A stretch of DNA of 37,087 nucleotides from Naegleria gruberi. Its lineage: Eukaryota. The position numbers were made by a program, and so were the translations under genes. The stretch's first letter is position 1; each line of letters opens with the position of its first letter. The notes below the pieces were generated by a model. The model made no database searches, was not told the DNA's origin, and worked only from the letters and a program-made list of their open reading frames with translations. Below are positions 1 to 37,087 of this stretch, one piece after another. The stretch lies in the NCBI GenBank assembly GCA_000004985.1, contig GG739025.1. The stretch is one strand, 5' to 3'.

Positions 1-384
1 TGGGCAAAGAAATGTGCCAAGTATAAGAAGGTTAAATATTGTAAGGAAAGAAAATCAGTTAAGAAATGTTGTCTCATTAAGAAGAAATTCTTCTGTGCCA
101 AACATAAGATTATCAAGTTCTGTAAGCACAAGAAGACTCTTTCTAAATGTGTCAAATATCAAAAGAAGAAGTATTGTGCCAAGACAATTGTCATTCCTCC
201 AAGATGTATCAAGAAGAAGTATTATAAGAAGTGTTTGAAACGTTCAAAGGGAAAGAAGATTTGTAAGAAATTTAAGTTAGTTGGTGGAAAGAAGAAGTGT
301 TGCAAGTCAATCAAGAAGAAGATTTGTATCAAGAGAAAGACATGTAAGAAGTCATCAAAGCCAATCATCAAACCATCTTTGTAA
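1..384 (+). CDS. Secreted lysine/cysteine-rich polycationic protein, copy A. Only the C-terminal 127 codons plus stop are present; the 5' end is cut by the window edge.
   Basis: Frame-1 ORF runs from base 1 to TAA at 382-384. Its translation (WAKKCAKYKKVKYCKERK...KPIIKPSL) is identical to the C-terminus of the minus-strand ORF at 29477-30448. The nucleotide sequences differ only at synonymous third positions (TAT37-39/TAC, TGT232-234/TGC, AAG274-276/AAA). Confidence 0.75.
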   Translation, partial: WAKKCAKYKKVKYCKERKSVKKCCLIKKKFFCAKHKIIKFCKHKKTLSKCVKYQKKKYCAKTIVIPPRCIKKKYYKKCLKRSKGKKICKKFKLVGGKKKCCKSIKKKICIKRKTCKKSSKPIIKPSL

Positions 385-414
385 ATGATTATTTTCAAAT
401 GTTTCTAATACTTT

Positions 415-420
415 AATAAA
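415..420 (+). promoter_or_regulatory. Putative polyadenylation signal AATAAA in the 3' UTR of copy A
   Basis: AATAAA lies 31 nt after the stop. The same 3' UTR segment (taaatgattattttcaaatgtttctaa..taataaagc) is conserved downstream of copy B. Confidence 0.4.
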
Positions 421-481
421 GCAAACTCTTATTGCAAAACAATCGCAAAGGACGCAAGTCAGTATTAAAAGACAAAACATC

Positions 482-553
482 CTCCCATGCCGGGAATTGA
501 ACCCGGACCTCCTGGGTGAAAGCCAGGTATCCTAGCCATTGGACTACACGGGA
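482..553 (-). tRNA. tRNA-Glu (anticodon UUC), 72 nt, no intron
   Basis: The reverse complement reads TCCCGTGTAGTCCAATGGCTAGGATACCTGGCTTTCACCCAGGAGGTCCGGGTTCAATTCCCGGCATGGGAG. It has a 7-bp acceptor stem (one G-U pair), a D arm, an anticodon stem CCTGG/CCAGG with loop CTTTCAC (anticodon TTC), and a T arm CCGGG-TTCAATT-CCCGG. A T-run follows on the minus strand (rc of 471-480 gives TGTTTTGTC), which fits a pol III terminator. Confidence 0.9.
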
Positions 554-752
554 TTTCTGACTACCATATTTCCCTTATTTTATAATAACGGATGTCTTAC
601 CTTATTAAATATATTAATTGATTATTTATGAATTTTTTACCCAAAATACTTTTTATCTAGGTGATCAATTTCAAAATGAATAAATGAACTAACTCGTCCT
701 CTCTTTTTCCAATCACTCTCTCTTACTGACTCGAAAGACGACGTACCTCACA

Positions 753-811
753 GTTCATACAGTCAAAGACTGTAGCGGGACAGTCGCCATATTCCTGGCA
801 GGCTTCCCGTC
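753..811. repeat. Conserved 59-bp structured element, copy 1. Candidate small ncRNA or repeat of unknown class; strand undetermined.
   Basis: The sequence gttcatacagtcaaagactgtagcgggaCAGTCgccatattcctggcaggcttcccgtc recurs at 28703-28761, identical except for three substitutions in the capitalised pentamer. It is predicted to form hairpin ACAGTC-AAA-GACTGT plus a second stem CGGGA..GCCA-tattcc-TGGC..TCCCG. It lies 200 bp from tRNA-Glu. Confidence 0.5.
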
Positions 812-1097
812 TAAATCATTAAGTGAAATCAAAAAATCTATTTGCTATTTTGTTTGTAGTGCATTAAGGGTAAGGATTTTTATCTAATTTAATTGTATGT
901 ATTCCCTTGTAATTACGTGCAATAATTAACATTTGTATGTTATTGCTTTCATTGTAGTTGTCTGTTGTTTGGCAATAAATTATTCTTTTTTAGTACCAAA
1001 ATATTTGGATTTCCAATAGGAAAATGAGCTCATTGTTGCTTGAATGAGAGTATCAAATTCATTGTATAATATAATTCCTAGAGCAGCAAAACTACCA

Positions 1098-27842: not shown

Positions 27843-27914
27843 GGGGACCAGTGTGAATCGAACCCACGGCCTCTCGCACCCAAAGCGAGAATCATACCAC
27901 TAGACCATGGTCCC
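27843..27914 (-). tRNA. tRNA-Pro (anticodon UGG), 72 nt
   Basis: The reverse complement reads GGGACCATGGTCTAGTGGTATGATTCTCGCTTTGGGTGCGAGAGGCCGTGGGTTCGATTCACACTGGTCCCC. It has a perfect 7-bp acceptor stem, an anticodon stem CTCGC/GCGAG with loop TTTGGGT (anticodon TGG), and D-arm/anticodon-arm sequence typical of animal tRNA-Pro. The T stem GTGGG/CACAC carries one G-A mismatch. The minus-strand 3' flank reads ATTACCTTTTATTTCC, which includes a T-run terminator. Confidence 0.85.
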
Positions 27915-28402: not shown

Positions 28403-28522
28403 GGCTACGGCCATATCACGATGAATGCACCTCATCCCGTCCGATTTGAGAAGTTAAGCATCGTCGAGCCACATCAGTACTGAGGTTGGAGACAACTTGG
28501 GAACCTGTGGTGCTGTAGTCTT
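28403..28522 (+). rRNA. 5S ribosomal RNA gene, about 120 nt
   Basis: GGCTACGGCCATATCACGATGAATGCACCTCATCCCGTCCGATTTGAGAAGTTAAGCATCGTCGAGCCACATCAGTACTGAGGTTGGAGACAACTTGGGAACCTGTGGTGCTGTAGTCTT. It has the 5S hallmarks CCCGTCCGAT, AAGTTAAGC, GTACT..GG..GGGAA and GGTGCTGTAG, followed by a TTTT terminator. Confidence 0.9.
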
Positions 28523-28524: not shown

Positions 28525-28702
28525 AATCTTAAACACTATTTCAATATTTGAAGACTAAATCGAAATTTTATCGTTTATTGATCAACCACAAGTTTCTTTC
28601 TAATTAGATCAAATTTAAAGGTGATAAATAGATGGTCACGTAGCAAGCTTTTCTAAACAATAACTTACTGAACCAACAATCAATAGATTAGTTGCCTTCA
28701 CT

Positions 28703-28761
28703 GTTCATACAGTCAAAGACTGTAGCGGGATTGTTGCCATATTCCTGGCAGGCTTCCCGTC
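28703..28761. repeat. Conserved 59-bp structured element, copy 2
   Basis: gttcatacagtcaaagactgtagcgggaTTGTTgccatattcctggcaggcttcccgtc, 181 bp downstream of the 5S 3' end. See copy 1 at 753-811. Flanks are not conserved, apart from a CTTACTGA octamer 22-31 bp to the left of both copies. Confidence 0.5.
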
Positions 28762-29229
28762 CAAAATAATAATTGAAATGTGACAATAACAACCACCAAG
28801 ATTTTATATTTTCTGGTCACACTCTGAATTATTAACATTTCATAAGAAATCATAAAAATTTTATGTTTTTAGGATTAATTTAATTTATTTACATACTGTT
28901 ACAATTCAAAGAAGTGTTAAAATACTGTGAAAAATCAAAGTAGGCTCCCTTTGAATTGTTTTAGGGCAGCAACCACCATCACGTGAAGGTCCAAGTTCCC
29001 TCTCCATAATTAATTTTCCATGCTAGCTTTGAAGGATAAGTATGTACTTTTGATAGGCCATTCATGGAGGAGAAGCAAGTTTTCTTTGTGTGAGGCTTGC
29101 ATTCAATTGGGCAAGTGAAAGACTTGGTGTAAAGATGAGAAGGTTGGTACGTTTAAAATTTTGTCCGTATCAAGAAATTTACTTCACTTTCGTTTTAAGA
29201 TTTCTGGTAAAAAGATATGCAAAATGATC

Positions 29230-29301
29230 CTCCCATGCCGGGAATTGAACCCGGACCTCCTGGGTGAAAGCCAGGTATCCTAGCCATTGGACTACACGGG
29301 A
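29230..29301 (-). tRNA. tRNA-Glu (anticodon UUC), second copy
   Basis: 72/72 identical to the copy at 482-553, in the same plus-strand orientation. The flanks are unrelated. A minus-strand T-run (rc of 29215-29229 gives GATCATTTTGCATAT) follows the 3' end immediately. Confidence 0.9.
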
Positions 29302-29476
29302 ACTCATTCATATTAAAAATATAACCTTAATGAAAATAGTACCTTATTCTTATAAAATCATCTACAAATGAACTCACTTAAGGATTTCCAACATTTCTTG
29401 AAATTTGTTTGCAATAAGAGTTTGCAAGAAAGGTTCTGGCTTTATTAGGGTGTTAGAAACATTTGAAAATAATCAT

Positions 29477-30448
29477 TTACAAAGATGGTTTGATGATTGG
29501 CTTTGATGACTTCTTACATGTCTTTCTCTTGATACAAATCTTCTTCTTGATTGACTTGCAACACTTCTTCTTTCCACCAACTAATTTAAATTTCTTACAA
29601 ATCTTCTTTCCCTTTGAACGTTTCAAGCACTTCTTATAATACTTCTTCTTGATACATCTTGGAGGAATGACAATTGTCTTGGCACAATACTTCTTCTTTT
29701 GATATTTGACACATTTAGAAAGAGTCTTCTTGTGCTTACAGAACTTGATAATCTTATGTTTGGCACAGAAGAATTTCTTCTTAATGAGACAACATTTCTT
29801 AACTGATTTTCTTTCCTTACAGTATTTAACCTTCTTATACTTGGCACATTTCTTTGCCCATGAAACAATCTTACACTTTTTAACATATCTACATTTGGAA
29901 ACCTTCTTATTGTAGGAATCAACAGTGTACTTGTCGCAAACCTTCTTCTTTTCACATTTTTTGATTGGAACCTTCTTGAATTTCTTACAGACCTTCTTGT
30001 ATCCCTTCTTGAAACACTTGTTGATAATCTTGTGTTTGGCACAGTATTTCTTGTAACCCTTCTTGATGCAAATCTTCTTAGTTCCATAAGAATCACAAAC
30101 TTTCCAGTACTTCTTCTTGGCACAACCAACAATCTTGTATGCATGCAAGACACACTTCTTTGTTGGCTTGCTATACTTGTCACATTTGGAATATTTCTTA
30201 TGTTTGAGACATTTACCAGCACCGACAATGGCATATTGATCACAGACTTTCTTTTGACCAACGAGTTTGTGTTTTAAACACTTCTTAATCCACTTGTGCT
30301 TTAAGCATTTTCTCTTACAATGCTTTGGCTTATGATACTTGTCAACAACGACGACTGGAGGTTTGGCTTGATAGCTGTCACTTGCTTGAACTGAGAGGAC
30401 TGCAAGTAAAAGTAGAAGTGCAATTGAAAAGATTAGATTTGCTTTCAT
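29477..30448 (-). CDS. Secreted lysine/cysteine-rich polycationic protein, copy B. Complete, 323 aa, single exon.
   Basis: Probable start ATG at 30448 (rc of cat 30446-30448). The ORF in the track begins 10 codons earlier at a TTG. The N-terminus MKANLIFSIALLLLLAVLSVQA|SDSYQ is a classical signal peptide. The mature region is about 35% Lys with about 34 Cys spaced every 6-11 residues, and motifs such as CLKHK, CAKHKII and KKYC recur. Stop TAA is at 29477-29479. The 3' UTR is conserved with copy A and includes AATAAA. A TTTAAAT-like TATA element lies about 55 bp upstream of the ATG. Confidence 0.8.
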   Translation of the reverse strand: MKANLIFSIALLLLLAVLSVQASDSYQAKPPVVVVDKYHKPKHCKRKCLKHKWIKKCLKHKLVGQKKVCDQYAIVGAGKCLKHKKYSKCDKYSKPTKKCVLHAYKIVGCAKKKYWKVCDSYGTKKICIKKGYKKYCAKHKIINKCFKKGYKKVCKKFKKVPIKKCEKKKVCDKYTVDSYNKKVSKCRYVKKCKIVSWAKKCAKYKKVKYCKERKSVKKCCLIKKKFFCAKHKIIKFCKHKKTLSKCVKYQKKKYCAKTIVIPPRCIKKKYYKKCLKRSKGKKICKKFKLVGGKKKCCKSIKKKICIKRKTCKKSSKPIIKPSL

Positions 30449-30753: not shown

Positions 30754-33700
30754 NNNNNNNNNNNNNNNNNNNNNNNNNNNNNNNNNNNNNNNNNNNNNNN
30801 NNNNNNNNNNNNNNNNNNNNNNNNNNNNNNNNNNNNNNNNNNNNNNNNNNNNNNNNNNNNNNNNNNNNNNNNNNNNNNNNNNNNNNNNNNNNNNNNNNNN
30901 NNNNNNNNNNNNNNNNNNNNNNNNNNNNNNNNNNNNNNNNNNNNNNNNNNNNNNNNNNNNNNNNNNNNNNNNNNNNNNNNNNNNNNNNNNNNNNNNNNNN
31001 NNNNNNNNNNNNNNNNNNNNNNNNNNNNNNNNNNNNNNNNNNNNNNNNNNNNNNNNNNNNNNNNNNNNNNNNNNNNNNNNNNNNNNNNNNNNNNNNNNNN
31101 NNNNNNNNNNNNNNNNNNNNNNNNNNNNNNNNNNNNNNNNNNNNNNNNNNNNNNNNNNNNNNNNNNNNNNNNNNNNNNNNNNNNNNNNNNNNNNNNNNNN
31201 NNNNNNNNNNNNNNNNNNNNNNNNNNNNNNNNNNNNNNNNNNNNNNNNNNNNNNNNNNNNNNNNNNNNNNNNNNNNNNNNNNNNNNNNNNNNNNNNNNNN
31301 NNNNNNNNNNNNNNNNNNNNNNNNNNNNNNNNNNNNNNNNNNNNNNNNNNNNNNNNNNNNNNNNNNNNNNNNNNNNNNNNNNNNNNNNNNNNNNNNNNNN
31401 NNNNNNNNNNNNNNNNNNNNNNNNNNNNNNNNNNNNNNNNNNNNNNNNNNNNNNNNNNNNNNNNNNNNNNNNNNNNNNNNNNNNNNNNNNNNNNNNNNNN
31501 NNNNNNNNNNNNNNNNNNNNNNNNNNNNNNNNNNNNNNNNNNNNNNNNNNNNNNNNNNNNNNNNNNNNNNNNNNNNNNNNNNNNNNNNNNNNNNNNNNNN
31601 NNNNNNNNNNNNNNNNNNNNNNNNNNNNNNNNNNNNNNNNNNNNNNNNNNNNNNNNNNNNNNNNNNNNNNNNNNNNNNNNNNNNNNNNNNNNNNNNNNNN
31701 NNNNNNNNNNNNNNNNNNNNNNNNNNNNNNNNNNNNNNNNNNNNNNNNNNNNNNNNNNNNNNNNNNNNNNNNNNNNNNNNNNNNNNNNNNNNNNNNNNNN
31801 NNNNNNNNNNNNNNNNNNNNNNNNNNNNNNNNNNNNNNNNNNNNNNNNNNNNNNNNNNNNNNNNNNNNNNNNNNNNNNNNNNNNNNNNNNNNNNNNNNNN
31901 NNNNNNNNNNNNNNNNNNNNNNNNNNNNNNNNNNNNNNNNNNNNNNNNNNNNNNNNNNNNNNNNNNNNNNNNNNNNNNNNNNNNNNNNNNNNNNNNNNNN
32001 NNNNNNNNNNNNNNNNNNNNNNNNNNNNNNNNNNNNNNNNNNNNNNNNNNNNNNNNNNNNNNNNNNNNNNNNNNNNNNNNNNNNNNNNNNNNNNNNNNNN
32101 NNNNNNNNNNNNNNNNNNNNNNNNNNNNNNNNNNNNNNNNNNNNNNNNNNNNNNNNNNNNNNNNNNNNNNNNNNNNNNNNNNNNNNNNNNNNNNNNNNNN
32201 NNNNNNNNNNNNNNNNNNNNNNNNNNNNNNNNNNNNNNNNNNNNNNNNNNNNNNNNNNNNNNNNNNNNNNNNNNNNNNNNNNNNNNNNNNNNNNNNNNNN
32301 NNNNNNNNNNNNNNNNNNNNNNNNNNNNNNNNNNNNNNNNNNNNNNNNNNNNNNNNNNNNNNNNNNNNNNNNNNNNNNNNNNNNNNNNNNNNNNNNNNNN
32401 NNNNNNNNNNNNNNNNNNNNNNNNNNNNNNNNNNNNNNNNNNNNNNNNNNNNNNNNNNNNNNNNNNNNNNNNNNNNNNNNNNNNNNNNNNNNNNNNNNNN
32501 NNNNNNNNNNNNNNNNNNNNNNNNNNNNNNNNNNNNNNNNNNNNNNNNNNNNNNNNNNNNNNNNNNNNNNNNNNNNNNNNNNNNNNNNNNNNNNNNNNNN
32601 NNNNNNNNNNNNNNNNNNNNNNNNNNNNNNNNNNNNNNNNNNNNNNNNNNNNNNNNNNNNNNNNNNNNNNNNNNNNNNNNNNNNNNNNNNNNNNNNNNNN
32701 NNNNNNNNNNNNNNNNNNNNNNNNNNNNNNNNNNNNNNNNNNNNNNNNNNNNNNNNNNNNNNNNNNNNNNNNNNNNNNNNNNNNNNNNNNNNNNNNNNNN
32801 NNNNNNNNNNNNNNNNNNNNNNNNNNNNNNNNNNNNNNNNNNNNNNNNNNNNNNNNNNNNNNNNNNNNNNNNNNNNNNNNNNNNNNNNNNNNNNNNNNNN
32901 NNNNNNNNNNNNNNNNNNNNNNNNNNNNNNNNNNNNNNNNNNNNNNNNNNNNNNNNNNNNNNNNNNNNNNNNNNNNNNNNNNNNNNNNNNNNNNNNNNNN
33001 NNNNNNNNNNNNNNNNNNNNNNNNNNNNNNNNNNNNNNNNNNNNNNNNNNNNNNNNNNNNNNNNNNNNNNNNNNNNNNNNNNNNNNNNNNNNNNNNNNNN
33101 NNNNNNNNNNNNNNNNNNNNNNNNNNNNNNNNNNNNNNNNNNNNNNNNNNNNNNNNNNNNNNNNNNNNNNNNNNNNNNNNNNNNNNNNNNNNNNNNNNNN
33201 NNNNNNNNNNNNNNNNNNNNNNNNNNNNNNNNNNNNNNNNNNNNNNNNNNNNNNNNNNNNNNNNNNNNNNNNNNNNNNNNNNNNNNNNNNNNNNNNNNNN
33301 NNNNNNNNNNNNNNNNNNNNNNNNNNNNNNNNNNNNNNNNNNNNNNNNNNNNNNNNNNNNNNNNNNNNNNNNNNNNNNNNNNNNNNNNNNNNNNNNNNNN
33401 NNNNNNNNNNNNNNNNNNNNNNNNNNNNNNNNNNNNNNNNNNNNNNNNNNNNNNNNNNNNNNNNNNNNNNNNNNNNNNNNNNNNNNNNNNNNNNNNNNNN
33501 NNNNNNNNNNNNNNNNNNNNNNNNNNNNNNNNNNNNNNNNNNNNNNNNNNNNNNNNNNNNNNNNNNNNNNNNNNNNNNNNNNNNNNNNNNNNNNNNNNNN
33601 NNNNNNNNNNNNNNNNNNNNNNNNNNNNNNNNNNNNNNNNNNNNNNNNNNNNNNNNNNNNNNNNNNNNNNNNNNNNNNNNNNNNNNNNNNNNNNNNNNNN

Positions 33701-34202
33701 NNNNNNNNNNNNNNNNNNNNNNNNNNNNNNNNNNNNNNNNNNNNNNNNNNNNNNNNNNNNNNNNNNNNNNNNNNNNNNNNNNNNNNNNNNNNNNNNNNNN
33801 NNNNNNNNNNNNNNNNNNNNNNNNNNNNNNNNNNNNNNNNNNNNNNNNNNNNNNNNNNNNNNNNNNNNNNNNNNNNNNNNNNNNNNNNNNNNNNNNNNNN
33901 NNNNNNNNNNNNNNNNNNNNNNNNNNNNNNNNNNNNNNNNNNNNNNNNNNNNNNNNNNNNNNNNNNNNNNNNNNNNNNNNNNNNNNNNNNNNNNNNNNNN
34001 NNNNNNNNNNNNNNNNNNNNNNNNNNNNNNNNNNNNNNNNNNNNNNNNNNNNNNNNNNNNNNNNNNNNNNNNNNNNNNNNNNNNNNNNNNNNNNNNNNNN
34101 NNNNNNNNNNNNNNNNNNNNNNNNNNNNNNNNNNNNNNNNNNNNNNNNNNNNNNNNNNNNNNNNNNNNNNNNNNNNNNNNNNNNNNNNNNNNNNNNNNNN
34201 NN
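30754..34202. other. Assembly gap (3,449 N)
   Basis: Run of n. It hides the 3' part of the NTPase-like gene. Confidence 0.99.
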
Positions 34203-36209
34203 ACTTTTCGCTTTCTTCAGTATTAATAAATGCATAAAATATTCAAATACAATTCCCTTCTGTTGTTTCTTGATATTCTTTCTGAGATGATTCCACAATT
34301 GACCTCTATAATTCTTAAACATCGTTTGATAATATACTGAAAAGGAAATTGGGTCAACAATATCAAAGTGAAGCTCCTTTTTACCAACCTGAACCACATG
34401 TGCAAAGGCTGTCTCGATGAATGCCTTTCCAACAATGTTGTTTAAAAGTGAATCTTGAGGCACAATGTATTTTTCTCCAAACAACAAATTGAAAATAGTT
34501 TCTTTGATTTCCTCCCTTGTTTCTTCATTAGAAAATATTCTATCCAATCGTTTCCTTGAGCTATCTTCCTTGTTACTAATAATTGTTGATAAGCAATTTC
34601 TGATGGATTGGCTTAAAGTTGTTTTTTCAGATTTTAAATCATTTAAAAGAAGTCTGTGGAATGATGTTAAATGCTCAGGGGATCCTGAAAGTAAATAACA
34701 CAGAGAATCCAAATGTGGAAAAGGTTGACTGGTATTAAAATTGAATTTCTCTTTGAGCACAATTTTTACGTCGTGGCAACACCACGGATACATTTCACCA
34801 ACAATTTGTTTGGTAAACCTTCCTTCTTCCGAAGTGAGGATTGCTGAAATCTGAAACGTCGTCCCAAGGAACACAGGATTATTGAACCTGGAGATTACTT
34901 TGAAGACAGCGTGGAAAAGATTTCCTTTTTCTGAATTGCTCATATGAACAGTACCCACTCCATGTGATGTTAAATTATTTGCCTCGTCAAAGGCGAAAAC
35001 TACCTTAAACTTTTGACTCTCAAACCATTTACTGTATTCTATATTCTCATTTTCTATTATTTTTATAAAGTTTGGATTGTTTCCAATAATCTTGAGTAAA
35101 TGTTCGAATAAATCCACAACCACTCCATCTCCACCATTCCTTAGAAATCTAATAATTTGTAAATCGCCTTAACTCTTGAAAACTTACTTGAAAAACTGTA
35201 AGGGATTAAGATTTGAATAATTGTGTAACAAAAGGTCGAGTAAAATATGATTTGCCAAACAAAACAATCCAACAGCAACTTCTGCACTAACCTCAGGTAA
35301 ACTACGAACTAAAGCATCAAATAATTTAGTATTTGGATAAAGATAAATAACAAAAAATCGGTCAACATCTTCAGTGGAAGTATGAGCAAGATTAAAAATC
35401 GAAAAGGTTTTTCCACTGGTCGAAATATCAATTAAATGAAGAATGGTGAACAGCTGATCTCCCTTCCCCACTTTACAATTTCTTGAAAGAGCTTCTCTTA
35501 GATGATCACCCTTATTTTCAGGATGCCTAAATGGATCAAAATGACCTGTCCATCCAGCATAATCATTTCGTCTAAATGCTTCAAATCTATCTGGTAGAAA
35601 AACATTTTTAAAGTAGTCTTTCAAAAGTGCTTTTTGCTTACTTGATTCATCTTTAATCTTTTCAGTCCAGAGCTCCAAAGATTCCTTAAAGATTTGAAAG
35701 ATAGACCTTTTGTCATGAATAAAAGTAGCACCAATACGTTGTGAAAAATCTACTCGTTCTATTTCATAGGAACCATGTTTGTCTAATTTTCGTGCCCAAC
35801 TAATTATTCTAATAAATTCTAAATGAAAATATTGTGAGAGTCCGTAGGTAGTTACCAATTTTTCTATCACGGAATTATCCTCACTTTCTATTGCTGCATA
35901 TAACTCGTAGCCTGAAAAGCCTATTTGAAATAATACCCAAGCACTGCAATGTCTTAATTCTGGACCGTTGCATTTTCTTGAGGCACAAAAAAACGAACAC
36001 AGATCCGATGTTGACCAATTACTCATCTCTGAGGTTTTTAAGAGTAAGGTGTTAGCGTTAGCTGGTGAATTCATTTTTACTTTTTTTAAATGATGAAATG
36101 GTTCAACTTTTATAAAAACAGACTTTCGTCCATTAATTAAAACCGATAAAATATAATAAATTGTTTGTAATTGAGATACCAGGAAGAACCTCCTCTGTTC
36201 TAATGGCAT
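34203..36209 (-). CDS. Large P-loop NTPase-like (AAA+/STAND-like) protein, 5' part. Exon 1 is 36209-35188, a 39-nt intron spans 35187-35149, and exon 2 runs from 35148 down to the gap edge at 34203 and continues into the gap.
   Basis: ATG at 36209. The track gives two same-strand ORFs, 35184-36209 and the piece from 35123 downward, which 'starts' at a GTG. They are separated by gtaagttttcaagagttaaggcgatttacaaattattag, which has a perfect GTAAGT donor and an AG acceptor. Splicing joins them in frame (...LQFFK|FLRNGGDGVVVDLFEH...). The protein has a degenerate Walker A (LIDISTSGKTFS) and, about 100 aa later, a Walker B (KVVFAFDEANNL). Codon usage is AT-biased and consistent throughout. Confidence 0.65.
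35149..35187 (-). other. Predicted 39-nt spliceosomal intron (GTAAGT...TTATTAG)
   Basis: Consensus donor GTAAGT follows codon TTC-AA directly. If the intron is retained, the first in-frame codon is a stop (TAA). Its removal restores a long ORF in the same frame as the downstream ORF. Confidence 0.6.
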
Positions 36210-36443: not shown

Positions 36444-37087
36444 TTAAATTTTCTTTGCAACAAAGAGTGCCCAATCAGCTCTTGGTTTAAGAGTCTTTCC
36501 ATCTTCTAATAGCTCTGTAGACATATGTCCAGCAAACATTTCAGTGTCATAAATTGTTCCGTTATCATCGACAACAATTGGAACACTGACATACCCTCTT
36601 GGAATAACATCTTGATCAATAATAGGCCATTCCATTGTGGTTGTTTCCCCCCAAATATTCACAGATTTTTGATCTCCCACCCAATGACCTTTATCTGAGA
36701 ATACGCAAAATGAAGTTATCCAACCAGACAAATAGGAAGGACCTGATCCACCACCACAATGATGGGCAACTCTATTCCACCATTCCTTATCAGGATTTCC
36801 TTTAATAGATTCCACAAATTTGTCCAAAACTGGGAATAATAGTTTGGACCATTTTTTCATACAGTTTTCCTTTGTATCAAATTCCAATAATCTATTTGCT
36901 CTTTCTCTAATTGAAACCCAATCCTCAACTTCGCCCAATAATGTTACATTTGGTAAATTGCAACACAAACTAAACATGTAATCAAAATAATTTTTCATAG
37001 CAGCCATTAATACAACTGCACCAATCATTCGATCTGTTTCGGTAGTTGTTGTAAAATCTGGCATTATCCATTCTCTTACACTTGGAT
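36444..37087 (-). CDS. Hypothetical conserved protein, C-terminal 213 codons. The 5' end lies outside the window.
   Basis: The minus-strand ORF stays open to the window edge: the in-frame codons upstream of the Met at 37064 read PSVREWI with no stop. The translation has a balanced composition with motifs such as [21 protein letters not shown] and no low-complexity stretch. It vaguely recalls DUF4419-type proteins, but that is from memory and unverified. Stop TAA is at 36444-36446. Confidence 0.55.

What the first reader, a model, noticed from the sequence alone, without database searches (positions are those of the whole stretch)
29477..30448. Unusual polycationic, periodically cysteine-spaced secreted protein with no family recognisable to me
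After a textbook signal peptide (MKANLIFSIALLLLLAVLSVQA), the 300-aa mature protein is roughly one-third lysine, with about 34 cysteines at 6-11-residue intervals and frequent Tyr/His (CLKHK, KKYC, CAKHKII, GYKKYC). There are no acidic stretches and no hydrophobic core. This composition suggests a disulfide-rich extracellular polycation such as an antimicrobial or toxin-like protein, an adhesive or cement protein, an eggshell or cuticle matrix protein, or a nucleic-acid- or polyanion-binding secreted factor. None of these can be distinguished from sequence alone. The cysteine spacing does not match ShK, Kazal, EGF or defensin patterns that I can recall.
Basis: partly seen in the sequence, partly recalled or inferred. 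Interest (0 to 1): 0.7.

Follow-up and report, generated by a model that had tools for sequence, protein, structure and literature searches.

The report
Naegleria secreted polylysine cystine-ladder rod protein
This is a real, conserved gene of the amoeba Naegleria for a secreted, extremely lysine-rich protein whose mirror-symmetric cysteine spacing predicts one very long disulfide-stapled hairpin rod; no described protein family or fold matches it, and its function (my best guess is a cross-linked cyst-wall or matrix fibre) is untested.

Summary
An intron-free ORF on the minus strand (29477-30448) encodes 323 aa. It has a signal-peptide-like N-terminus and a 301-aa mature part with 35.5% Lys, 32 Cys (not 34) and net charge +104. 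Cys spacing is dominated by 9 residues and was never reached in 20,000 shuffles.

The window is Naegleria DNA. The protein belongs to an unannotated, Naegleria-restricted multigene family found in N. gruberi, N. fowleri, N. lovaniensis and environmental contigs. No Pfam, PDB-sequence or PDB-fold match was found, and I found no paper mentioning it.

A second copy of the 3' half lies at window 1-381. Its three differences are all synonymous. dN/dS against a 77%-identical homologue is 0.15.

The new result is that the cysteine spacing is palindromic. N-half and C-half cysteines mirror each other (i+j = 353-357), in every full-length paralogue. One mirrored Cys pair is lost on both arms together, and one insertion occurs on both arms together. 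AlphaFold2 with 18 sequences (pLDDT 77) independently gives one giant beta-hairpin (48-170 / 187-308).

The best reading is a roughly 40-nm polycationic rod with about 15 disulfide rungs, two unpaired Cys and D-x-Y motifs at its ends. It is probably a cross-linked extracellular structural protein, with cyst wall the leading guess. An antimicrobial or adhesive role is not excluded.

The parts
29477..30448 (-). Complete single-exon CDS, 323 codons plus TAA, of the Lys/Cys-rich secreted protein
   Evidence: ORF listing and translation. Full-length homologues exist in N. gruberi, N. fowleri and N. lovaniensis. dN/dS is 0.15 against homologue L001.
30383..30448 (-). Signal-peptide-like N-terminus, aa 1-22 (MKANLIFSIALLLLLAVLSVQA)
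   Evidence: The sequence shows it directly. A hydrophobic N-terminus is conserved in all full-length family members. It was not run through SignalP.
30320..30382 (-). N-terminal tail, aa 23-43, with two D-x-Y motifs (DSY, VDKY) just before the first cysteine
   Evidence: D36 and Y38 are at least 90% conserved across the family. All 7 Asp lie in D-x-Y.
29936..30319 (-). N-arm of the predicted hairpin, aa 44-171, with 15 ladder cysteines
   Evidence: Cys positions. Palindromic pairing with the C-arm. AF2 strands 48-170.
29894..29935 (-). Predicted hairpin tip loop, aa 172-185 (DKYTVDSYNKKVSK)
   Evidence: Centre of the mirror symmetry. It is the low-pLDDT, non-strand segment 173-185 in the AF2 model.
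29516..29893 (-). C-arm of the predicted hairpin, aa 186-311, with 15 ladder cysteines plus two extra ('orphan') Cys in the CC doublets 219/220 and 296/297
   Evidence: AF2 strands 187-308.
29480..29515 (-). C-terminal basic tail, aa 312-323 (KKSSKPIIKPSL). It has no hydrophobic anchor or retention signal.
   Evidence: The sequence shows it directly.
1..384 (+). Second copy of the gene, cut by the window start. It covers the last 127 codons plus TAA, in inverted orientation about 29 kb away.
   Evidence: 97.5% nucleotide identity over 440 bp. The protein is 100% identical. The 3 coding differences are all synonymous, while the 3' flank diverges.

Best explanation
It is a functional Naegleria gene and a member of an undescribed multigene family. 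Apart from one marginal Willaertia hit, every named source of that family is Naegleria.

Steps that are inferred:
1. Secretion. The N-terminus looks like a signal peptide and is presumed to direct the protein into the secretory pathway.
2. Fold. The mature chain is predicted to fold back on itself once. Residues about 44-171 run antiparallel to about 186-311. Each cysteine on one arm lies opposite a cysteine on the other arm, giving about 15 cross-strand disulfide 'rungs' roughly every 9 residues. If fully extended this would be a stiff two-stranded beta-ribbon rod about 40 nm long, carrying about +100 net charge.
3. Cross-linking points. Two extra cysteines per molecule have no mirror partner, and D-x-Y motifs sit at the open end and at the tip. 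I take these as points for covalent linking between molecules, by intermolecular disulfides and possibly tyrosine cross-links.
4. Function. I think it most likely is a building block of an insoluble extracellular material that coats or binds polyanions. The cyst wall is my leading candidate.

Shown here: the gene, the family, purifying selection, the palindromic cysteine register and its co-variation, and the absence of any known family or fold match. The disulfide map, secretion, rod shape, cross-linking and location are all inferred.
For: Gene and family:
- Homologues occur only in Naegleria and environmental contigs, plus one marginal Willaertia hit. A search of 1.84 billion cluster representatives gave 16 hits at E<=0.001, and 2 of those are repetitive junk.
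- dN/dS is 0.15 at dS 0.95, and 30 of 31 aligned Cys are kept.
- The in-window paralogue differs only by synonymous changes.

Hairpin:
- Mirror sums i+j are 353-357 for 15 Cys pairs.
- The same nested ladder is found in 10 family members scored, 301-475 aa long, with 13-15 rungs at a tolerance of 2 residues.
- In 9 members tested, the ladder exceeds a null that shuffles the Cys gap order, with p from <0.003 to 0.04.
- The irregular gaps also mirror each other, e.g. 4/6, 12/13, 17/18 and 15/21. Mirrored correlation is r = 0.75-0.94 (permutation p from 6e-3 to <1e-5), against r = -0.16 to 0.56 in direct order.
- One mirrored Cys pair is present in 4 members and lost on both arms together in 7. 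This requires re-registering the gapped centre of alignment A3.
- In P0007 and P0019 an insertion occurs on both arms at the same rung interval.
- AF2 rises from pLDDT 41 with 3 sequences to 77 with 18 sequences. It gives one hairpin, 48-170 / 187-308, with pLDDT above 90 in mid-arm.

Structural role:
- Rung number and spacing are conserved between orthologous subfamilies of three species.
- Several members have two orphan Cys each, 32-77 residues apart along the rod, so they cannot pair within a straight hairpin.
- A D-x-Y motif before the first rung is nearly invariant. Long paralogues end in (V/I)D(S/T)YKP repeats.
- AAG is used for 72% of Lys codons and GC3 is 0.45, against 0.24-0.33 in neighbouring genes. 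This could reflect high expression or avoidance of poly(A) runs.
Against: - There is no expression, localisation or biochemical evidence of any kind. Ten literature searches (no separate search for 'secretome' was run) and three supplement look-ups found no cyst-wall proteome for Naegleria and no mention of any family member.
- AF2 often draws long hairpins for low-complexity sequence. The best, non-significant viral-library matches include uncharacterized viral proteins, which may be such spurious hairpin models.
- A 9-residue (odd) rung spacing would place alternate rungs at hydrogen-bonded positions of a regular antiparallel ribbon. These positions are unfavourable for disulfides, so bulges or an irregular ribbon would be needed.
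- The family members are related, so the per-protein p-values are not independent.
- To my knowledge Naegleria walls are thought to contain neutral beta-1,4 glycans. That gives no obvious need for a polycation.
- Some paralogues have an odd Cys count, for example 35 in P0020-22.
Confidence: 0.45

Rival explanations
1. Antimicrobial or bacteria-binding polycation. The protein would be delivered to phagosomes or released to agglutinate, permeabilise or immobilise the bacteria that Naegleria eats. It would act as a giant version of the cationic, disulfide-stapled beta-hairpin peptides (tachyplesin, protegrin, theta-defensin), or like poly-lysine.
For: Net charge is +104 with 35% Lys. It has a signal-like N-terminus. 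The predicted cross-strand cystine ladder is the architecture of hairpin antimicrobial peptides (established knowledge). Naegleria is a bacterivore. The codon bias is compatible with high expression.
Against: It is 301 aa, not 16-25 aa. It has no clear amphipathic face and few hydrophobic residues. Strong purifying selection and conserved rung number across species are not what fast-evolving effector peptides usually show. The orphan Cys and terminal D-x-Y repeats suggest covalent assembly. A divergent metagenome relative (P0015) keeps the Cys frame with only 13% Lys, so the scaffold, not the charge, is the conserved feature.
Confidence: 0.2
2. Adhesive or surface-coat protein of the trophozoite, a 'cement' that sticks the amoeba or its trail to negatively charged substrates. 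It would be analogous in chemistry (Lys + Tyr + Cys) to mussel-foot or tube-worm cement proteins.
For: Composition is K 35%, Y 6.6% and C 10.6%. (V/I)D(S/T)YKP(P)KK tandem repeats at the ends of paralogues P0008 and P0023 resemble the Tyr-Lys-Pro decapeptides of mussel adhesives. That resemblance is recalled from knowledge, not tested.
Against: There is no sequence or profile similarity to any adhesive family. No evidence exists for DOPA or other modification. No membrane anchor is present. Nothing separates this reading from a wall-matrix role.
Confidence: 0.12
3. The ladder is an artefact. Cysteines would pair locally (neighbour to neighbour) or stay reduced, and the protein would be a flexible, largely disordered polycation. 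The palindromic spacing would be a by-product of a 9-residue repeat with degenerate ends.
Against: The irregular gaps also mirror each other. A mirrored Cys pair is lost together and an insertion arises on both arms together. Direct-order correlation is much weaker. AF2 confidence above 90 appears once 18 sequences are supplied.
Confidence: 0.18
4. Spurious ORF, pseudogene or low-complexity translation with no function.
For: One environmental homologue (L001) carries an in-frame TGA. The reference N. gruberi model for the closest copy is a mis-fused prediction (P0002).
Against: The ORF is intact at 323 codons. Homologues exist in three Naegleria species. dN/dS is 0.15. The window's two copies differ only synonymously.
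Confidence: 0.02

Closest known systems
Cationic cystine-ladder beta-hairpin peptides (theta-defensins, tachyplesin, protegrin, arenicin)
   Same: Predicted two antiparallel strands joined by a ladder of cross-strand disulfides. Strongly cationic. Secretory origin.
   Different: Those peptides are 16-25 residues long with 2-3 rungs spaced 2-4 residues apart. This protein has about 125 residues per arm and about 15 rungs spaced about 9 residues apart. There is no sequence relationship and no evidence of antimicrobial action.
Lineage-specific disulfide-rich cyst and oocyst wall proteins of protists (Cryptosporidium COWPs, Giardia CWP1-3 with the basic tail of CWP2, Entamoeba Jacob/Jessie lectins, Acanthamoeba Luke/Leo/Jonah lectins; PMC6541295)
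   Same: Secreted, Cys-rich with periodic cysteines, encoded by small lineage-restricted gene families in a cyst-forming protist. A cross-linked insoluble product is expected.
   Different: No profile match to any such family. No recognisable carbohydrate-binding module or LRR. Lys content is far higher. Wall localisation was not shown for this family, and no Naegleria wall proteome was found.
Plant and algal extensins (basic, rod-like, Tyr-cross-linked wall scaffolds)
   Same: Working analogy only: an extended, basic, secreted rod with Tyr-containing motifs that could be cross-linked and bind acidic polymers.
   Different: Extensins are polyproline-II rods built of Ser-Hyp repeats and lack cysteine ladders. 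No SPPP motifs are present here. There is no homology.
Unannotated database entries of the same family: N. gruberi NAEGRDRAFT_67458, _66117 and _76199 (C-terminal half); N. fowleri FDP41_004030 and FDP41_008345; N. lovaniensis C9374_009239 and C9374_012983
   Same: True homologues, 31-88% identical, with the same signal-like N-terminus, D-x-Y motifs and palindromic Cys frame.
   Different: All are labelled 'predicted' or 'hypothetical' protein. The window protein is the most lysine-rich member (36% K, +104) and belongs to the short-hairpin subfamily (14-residue tip loop against 25-40).

Membership tests
Unnamed Naegleria Lys/Cys-rich secreted family (NAEGRDRAFT_67458 / FDP41_004030 / C9374_009239) | Significant full-length sequence similarity | tested here: met
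   P0003 has E 2.5e-56 and 88% coverage. Profile searches give E from 1e-145 to 1e-16 for Naegleria proteins.
Unnamed Naegleria Lys/Cys-rich secreted family | Conserved, mirror-symmetric cysteine register (nested i+j constant) | tested here: met
   15 rungs in the window protein and 13-15 at a tolerance of 2 residues in the other members.
Unnamed Naegleria Lys/Cys-rich secreted family | Hydrophobic signal-like N-terminus and a (V)D-x-Y motif before the first Cys | tested here: met
   Alignments A1 and A2. D36 and Y38 are at least 90% conserved.
ShK / Kazal / EGF / defensin / conotoxin and other small Cys-rich domains | Match to the family profile (Pfam) | tested here: not met
   No Pfam family at E<=10 for the window protein. 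Among 18 relatives there are only isolated sub-threshold hits, e.g. Conotoxin E=0.047 in one member.
Cystine-ladder beta-hairpin antimicrobial peptides | Short mature peptide (about 16-25 aa) with 2-3 closely spaced rungs | tested here: not met
   The mature protein is 301 aa with rungs about 9 residues apart.
Cystine-ladder beta-hairpin antimicrobial peptides | Cross-strand disulfides between antiparallel strands | tested here: inconclusive
   Predicted from the palindromic spacing and AF2. There is no chemical disulfide map and no model coordinates were available.
Cystine-ladder beta-hairpin antimicrobial peptides | Membrane-active killing of microbes | not testable with these tools
   Needs recombinant protein and killing assays.
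Protist cyst/oocyst wall proteins (COWP, CWP, Jacob/Jessie, Luke/Leo/Jonah) | Sequence or profile similarity to a described wall-protein family | tested here: not met
   No Pfam hit. No PDB sequence hit.
Protist cyst/oocyst wall proteins | Encystment-induced expression and presence in purified walls | not testable with these tools
   No Naegleria wall proteome or usable expression table was found.
Extensins / HRGPs | Ser-Pro(3-5) repeats | tested here: not met
   The sequence has no SPPP motif and only 9 Pro in the mature protein.
Metallothioneins | 20-30% Cys in CxC / CC / CxxC clusters; cytosolic | tested here: not met
   Cys is 10.6% with modal spacing 9, and a signal-like N-terminus is present. 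The His at Cys+3 positions are replaced by Tyr in paralogues.
Any solved protein fold | Structural similarity of the AF2 model to a PDB chain | tested here: not met

The most novel reading that the evidence does not exclude
The family defines a previously unrecognised protein architecture: a single 120-residue-per-arm beta-hairpin 'cystine ladder' rod about 40 nm long. Naegleria would polymerise it, through its two unpaired cysteines and terminal D-x-Y motifs, into the protein scaffold of the cyst wall. If so, it would be the first molecularly defined Naegleria wall component. Standard proteomics would have missed it, because trypsin cuts a 35%-Lys protein into peptides too short to detect. 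It would also be a candidate target or marker for the resistant stage of the pathogen N. fowleri.
Probability: 0.25. Interest if true: 0.8.

Novelty: categorically new. Interest (0 to 1): 0.62.

Why it matters
If the prediction holds, this is a new way to build a stiff extracellular rod from a simple 9-residue repeat. One chain folds back on itself and is stapled by about 15 evenly spaced disulfides. Nothing comparable was found among solved structures.

Biologically, it would give a first molecular handle on extracellular material of Naegleria, a genus that includes the lethal N. fowleri. The chemistry of that organism's cyst wall is poorly known, and its cysts resist disinfection.

The hypothesis also makes a practical point. 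Proteins this rich in lysine are nearly invisible to trypsin-based proteomics, so a major component could have been overlooked.

Even if the wall hypothesis fails, a +100-charged secreted rod in a bacterivore is a testable candidate for a new class of antimicrobial or adhesive.

Tried and rejected
Family and fold searches that found nothing:
- Pfam on the protein and on 18 relatives.
- PDB sequence profile search at E<=10.
- AFDB50: the library was not installed.

Repeat and locus searches:
- Tandem Repeats Finder on the DNA: no array.
- Exact-protein locus look-ups for the window protein, P0002, P0003 and P0021: not on record.
A1 matched patterns, but no relative was confirmed.
- The N. fowleri locus of P0008 has unrelated housekeeping neighbours and no tandem array, so genomic context is uninformative.
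- Upstream region compared with homologue L001: no convincing conserved promoter block.

Literature:
- 10 searches and 3 supplement look-ups for family IDs, accessions, Naegleria cyst-wall composition or proteome, cyst and differentiation transcriptomes, and 'disulfide/cystine ladder' proteins.
- They found no mention of the family, no Naegleria wall proteome and no analogous long ladder.

Ideas rejected:
- Metal binding through C-x2-H. The His positions are replaced by Tyr in paralogues, and i/i+3 residues lie on opposite faces of a strand.
- Direct duplication of the two halves. Direct-order gap correlation is weak.
- Hits P0013 and P0014. These are translations of satellite-like repeats, not relatives.

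Full report
**1. Observation**

The coordinates 29477-30448 bound one uninterrupted ORF on the minus strand, with ATG at 30446-30448 and TAA at 29477-29479. It encodes 323 aa.

The first 22 residues (MKANLIFSIALLLLLAVLSVQA) have the charged, hydrophobic and small-residue layout of a secretory signal peptide. This was judged by eye, because no SignalP was available.

Net charge is +104 and pI about 10.1.

Fourteen of the 31 Cys-to-Cys gaps are exactly 9 residues and 24 lie between 8 and 12. Neither count was reached in 20,000 shuffles of the same composition. The unit is roughly C-x-K-x-K-h-h-K-K. There is no DNA-level tandem array.

All seven Asp residues sit in D-x-Y motifs (0 of 100,000 shuffles).

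**2. Organism and reality of the gene**

The closest proteins are 'predicted proteins' of Naegleria gruberi, so the window is Naegleria DNA, at about 33% GC. About 81% of the window is N-masked.

Three protein-database searches and one exhaustive profile search of 1.84 billion cluster representatives found only 16 proteins at E<=0.001. Two of these are translations of satellite repeats. The genuine ones come from:
- N. gruberi (NAEGRDRAFT_67458, _66117, _76199, and P0021)
- N. fowleri (FDP41_004030, FDP41_008345)
- N. lovaniensis (C9374_009239, C9374_012983)
- soil and metagenome assemblies
- one marginal hit in Willaertia

All are unannotated.

The window itself holds a second copy. Bases 1-381 on the plus strand encode the last 127 residues with 100% protein identity. 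The three nucleotide differences in the coding part are all synonymous, while the 3' flank diverges much more.

Against a 77%-identical homologue from a Logan assembly (L001), dN/dS is 0.15 at dS 0.95, and 30 of 31 aligned cysteines are kept.

Codon usage is distinctive. AAG makes up 72% of Lys codons and GC3 is 0.45, against 0.24-0.33 in neighbouring ORFs. This is compatible with high expression or with avoidance of poly(A) tracts.

The gene is therefore real and under purifying selection.

**3. No known family or fold**

- Pfam gives nothing at E<=10 for the protein. Across 18 relatives it gives only isolated sub-threshold hits.
- A family profile finds no PDB sequence at E<=10.
- The viral structure library gives nothing useful.
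- AFDB could not be searched.

**4. Anatomy: a palindromic cysteine frame**

Numbering the full protein, the cysteines are:
- 44, 48, 57, 69, 80, 89, 99, 109, 118, 127, 136, 145, 154, 165, 171
- then 186, 192, 201, 210, 219/220, 228, 237, 246, 255, 265, 274, 284, 296/297, 305, 311

Pairing them from the centre outward (171-186, 165-192, 154-201 ... 48-305, 44-311) gives i+j = 353-357 for all 15 pairs.

A 9-residue repeat produces part of this symmetry by itself, so I applied four further checks.
- (a) Against a null that shuffles the order of the gaps, each of 9 full-length members exceeds or equals the best shuffles, with p from <0.003 to 0.04.
- (b) The irregular gaps also mirror each other: 4/6, 12/13, 11/10 and 6/6 in the window protein, 17/18 in the N. 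fowleri type, and 15/21 in the N. lovaniensis type. Correlation is r = 0.75-0.94 in mirrored order (permutation p from 6e-3 to <1e-5), against -0.16 to 0.56 in direct order.
- (c) One rung co-varies. The Cys at alignment column 209 (N-arm) and its mirror partner (column 318, after correcting the arbitrary gap placement) are both present in four members and both replaced in seven.
- (d) In P0007 and P0019 an insertion rich in D-x-Y and Pro occurs on both arms at the same rung interval.

Independently, AlphaFold2 went from pLDDT 41 with 3 sequences to 77 with 18 sequences. More than 110 residues scored above 90. It drew a single hairpin with strands spanning 48-170 and 187-308 and a loop at 171-186.

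Together these results support one long two-stranded antiparallel ribbon with about 15 disulfide rungs. If extended at about 3.3 Å per residue it would be roughly 40 nm long.

Caveats:
- I could not inspect the model coordinates.
- AF2 tends to draw hairpins for repetitive sequence.
- An odd rung spacing does not suit a perfectly regular ribbon.
- The family members are not statistically independent.

**5. Other conserved features**

- Several members carry two cysteines outside the ladder. These are the CC doublets at 219/220 and 296/297 in the window protein, residues 79 and 223 in P0003, and 62 and 284 in P0008. They lie 32-77 residues apart along the rod, so they cannot bond to each other in a straight hairpin. 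Intermolecular disulfides are the simplest use for them. This is an inference.
- A (V)D-x-Y motif directly before the first rung is nearly invariant.
- The window subfamily also has VDSY at the tip.
- Long paralogues end in tandem (V/I)D(S/T)YKP(P)KK repeats.
- A divergent metagenome member (P0015) keeps the Cys frame with only 13% Lys. The scaffold is therefore the conserved core, and the extreme charge is a feature of this branch.

**6. Mechanism**

My best-supported reading (confidence about 0.45 for the whole chain) is this. The protein is secreted, oxidatively folded into a stiff polycationic rod, and covalently linked to neighbours through the orphan cysteines and perhaps the terminal tyrosines. 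It would form or reinforce an insoluble extracellular material and bind polyanions. The cyst wall is the leading candidate for three reasons:
- Such walls in other protists are built from lineage-restricted, disulfide-rich secreted proteins.
- Rung number and spacing are conserved across species, as expected for a structural element.
- The orphan Cys and D-x-Y ends suggest assembly.

Rivals:
- an antimicrobial or bacteria-binding polycation (0.2)
- a trophozoite adhesive or coat (0.12)
- a structural rival in which the ladder is an artefact and the chain is a flexible polycation (0.18)
- a non-functional ORF, which is essentially excluded (0.02)

No expression or localisation data could be found. 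None of the family identifiers appears in the searchable literature or in the supplements I could open, and no Naegleria cyst-wall proteome exists in the library. Trypsin-based proteomics would in any case shred a 35%-Lys protein into peptides too short to detect.

**7. Comparison and novelty**

In mechanism, the nearest things are the short cationic cystine-ladder hairpin peptides and the disulfide-rich wall proteins of other protists. Extensins serve as a functional analogy for a basic, Tyr-cross-linkable rod.

The protein fails every membership test that could be run for these: size, profile match and motif content. It is a clear member only of its own unnamed Naegleria family.

I rate it categorically new at the level of family and predicted architecture. 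The caveat is that the architecture is inferred and the sequences already sit unannotated in public databases.

**8. Verdict**

Interest is 0.62. This is a genuine orphan family with a striking, testable structural prediction and possible relevance to Naegleria cysts, but there is no functional evidence yet.

Noticed in passing
window 1-438 (+) versus 29421-29860 (-): An inverted second copy of the gene's 3' half plus 57 bp of 3' flank, at 97.5% identity. The coding differences are all synonymous. It is cut by the window start, so the full second gene lies outside the window.
   Followed up: yes
window 482-553 (-), 29229-29302 (-), 27843-27914 (-), 28403-28521 (+): The neighbourhood is rich in RNA polymerase III genes. 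There are two 97.6%-identical tRNA-Glu(UUC) genes, one just downstream of each copy of the protein gene. There is also a tRNA-Pro(UGG) and a 5S rRNA gene (Rfam 105 bits).
   Followed up: partly
window 748-829 and 28698-28779 (+): An element of about 80 nt occurs twice at 89% identity. Its plus strand folds into two stem-loops (MFE -31.3 kcal/mol, z = -5.0). It has no Rfam match at E<=1. It may be an unannotated small RNA, or a conserved promoter or terminator module next to the Pol III genes.
   Followed up: partly
P0002 (N. gruberi NAEGRDRAFT_76199, XP_002668872): This reference gene model fuses SAM and PB1 domains to the C-terminal half of this secreted family, which is 88% identical to the window protein. 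It is almost certainly a mis-joined prediction, possibly across an assembly gap.
   Followed up: partly
L001 632-634 (Logan SRR32051688 contig): The 77%-identical homologue has an in-frame TGA where the window protein has Gly108. It could be a sequencing error, a polymorphism or a recent pseudogene. The rest of the gene shows dN/dS of 0.15.
   Followed up: partly
window 36444-37064 (-): A 206-aa ORF matches Pfam DUF4419 (E 9e-69). The ORFs at 35184-36209 (-) and 34205-35123 (-) have no Pfam match. The latter runs into the N-masked block.
   Followed up: partly
window 1098-27760 and 30754-34202: Two N-masked blocks (26,663 and 3,449 bases) remove about 81% of the window. Anything between the two gene copies is invisible.
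   Followed up: no
window 29477-30448 (-): Lys codon use is strongly skewed to AAG (78 AAG against 30 AAA) in an AT-rich genome whose neighbouring genes prefer AAA. This is compatible with selection against poly(A) tracts or with high expression.
   Followed up: partly
L003 10001-11343 (N. fowleri VFQX01000036.1): The N. fowleri paralogue FDP41_004030 spans 1343 bp for 379 codons, so it contains about 200 bp of intron, unlike the intron-free window gene. The truncated database entries P0016 and P0011 look like read-through into such introns.
   Followed up: no
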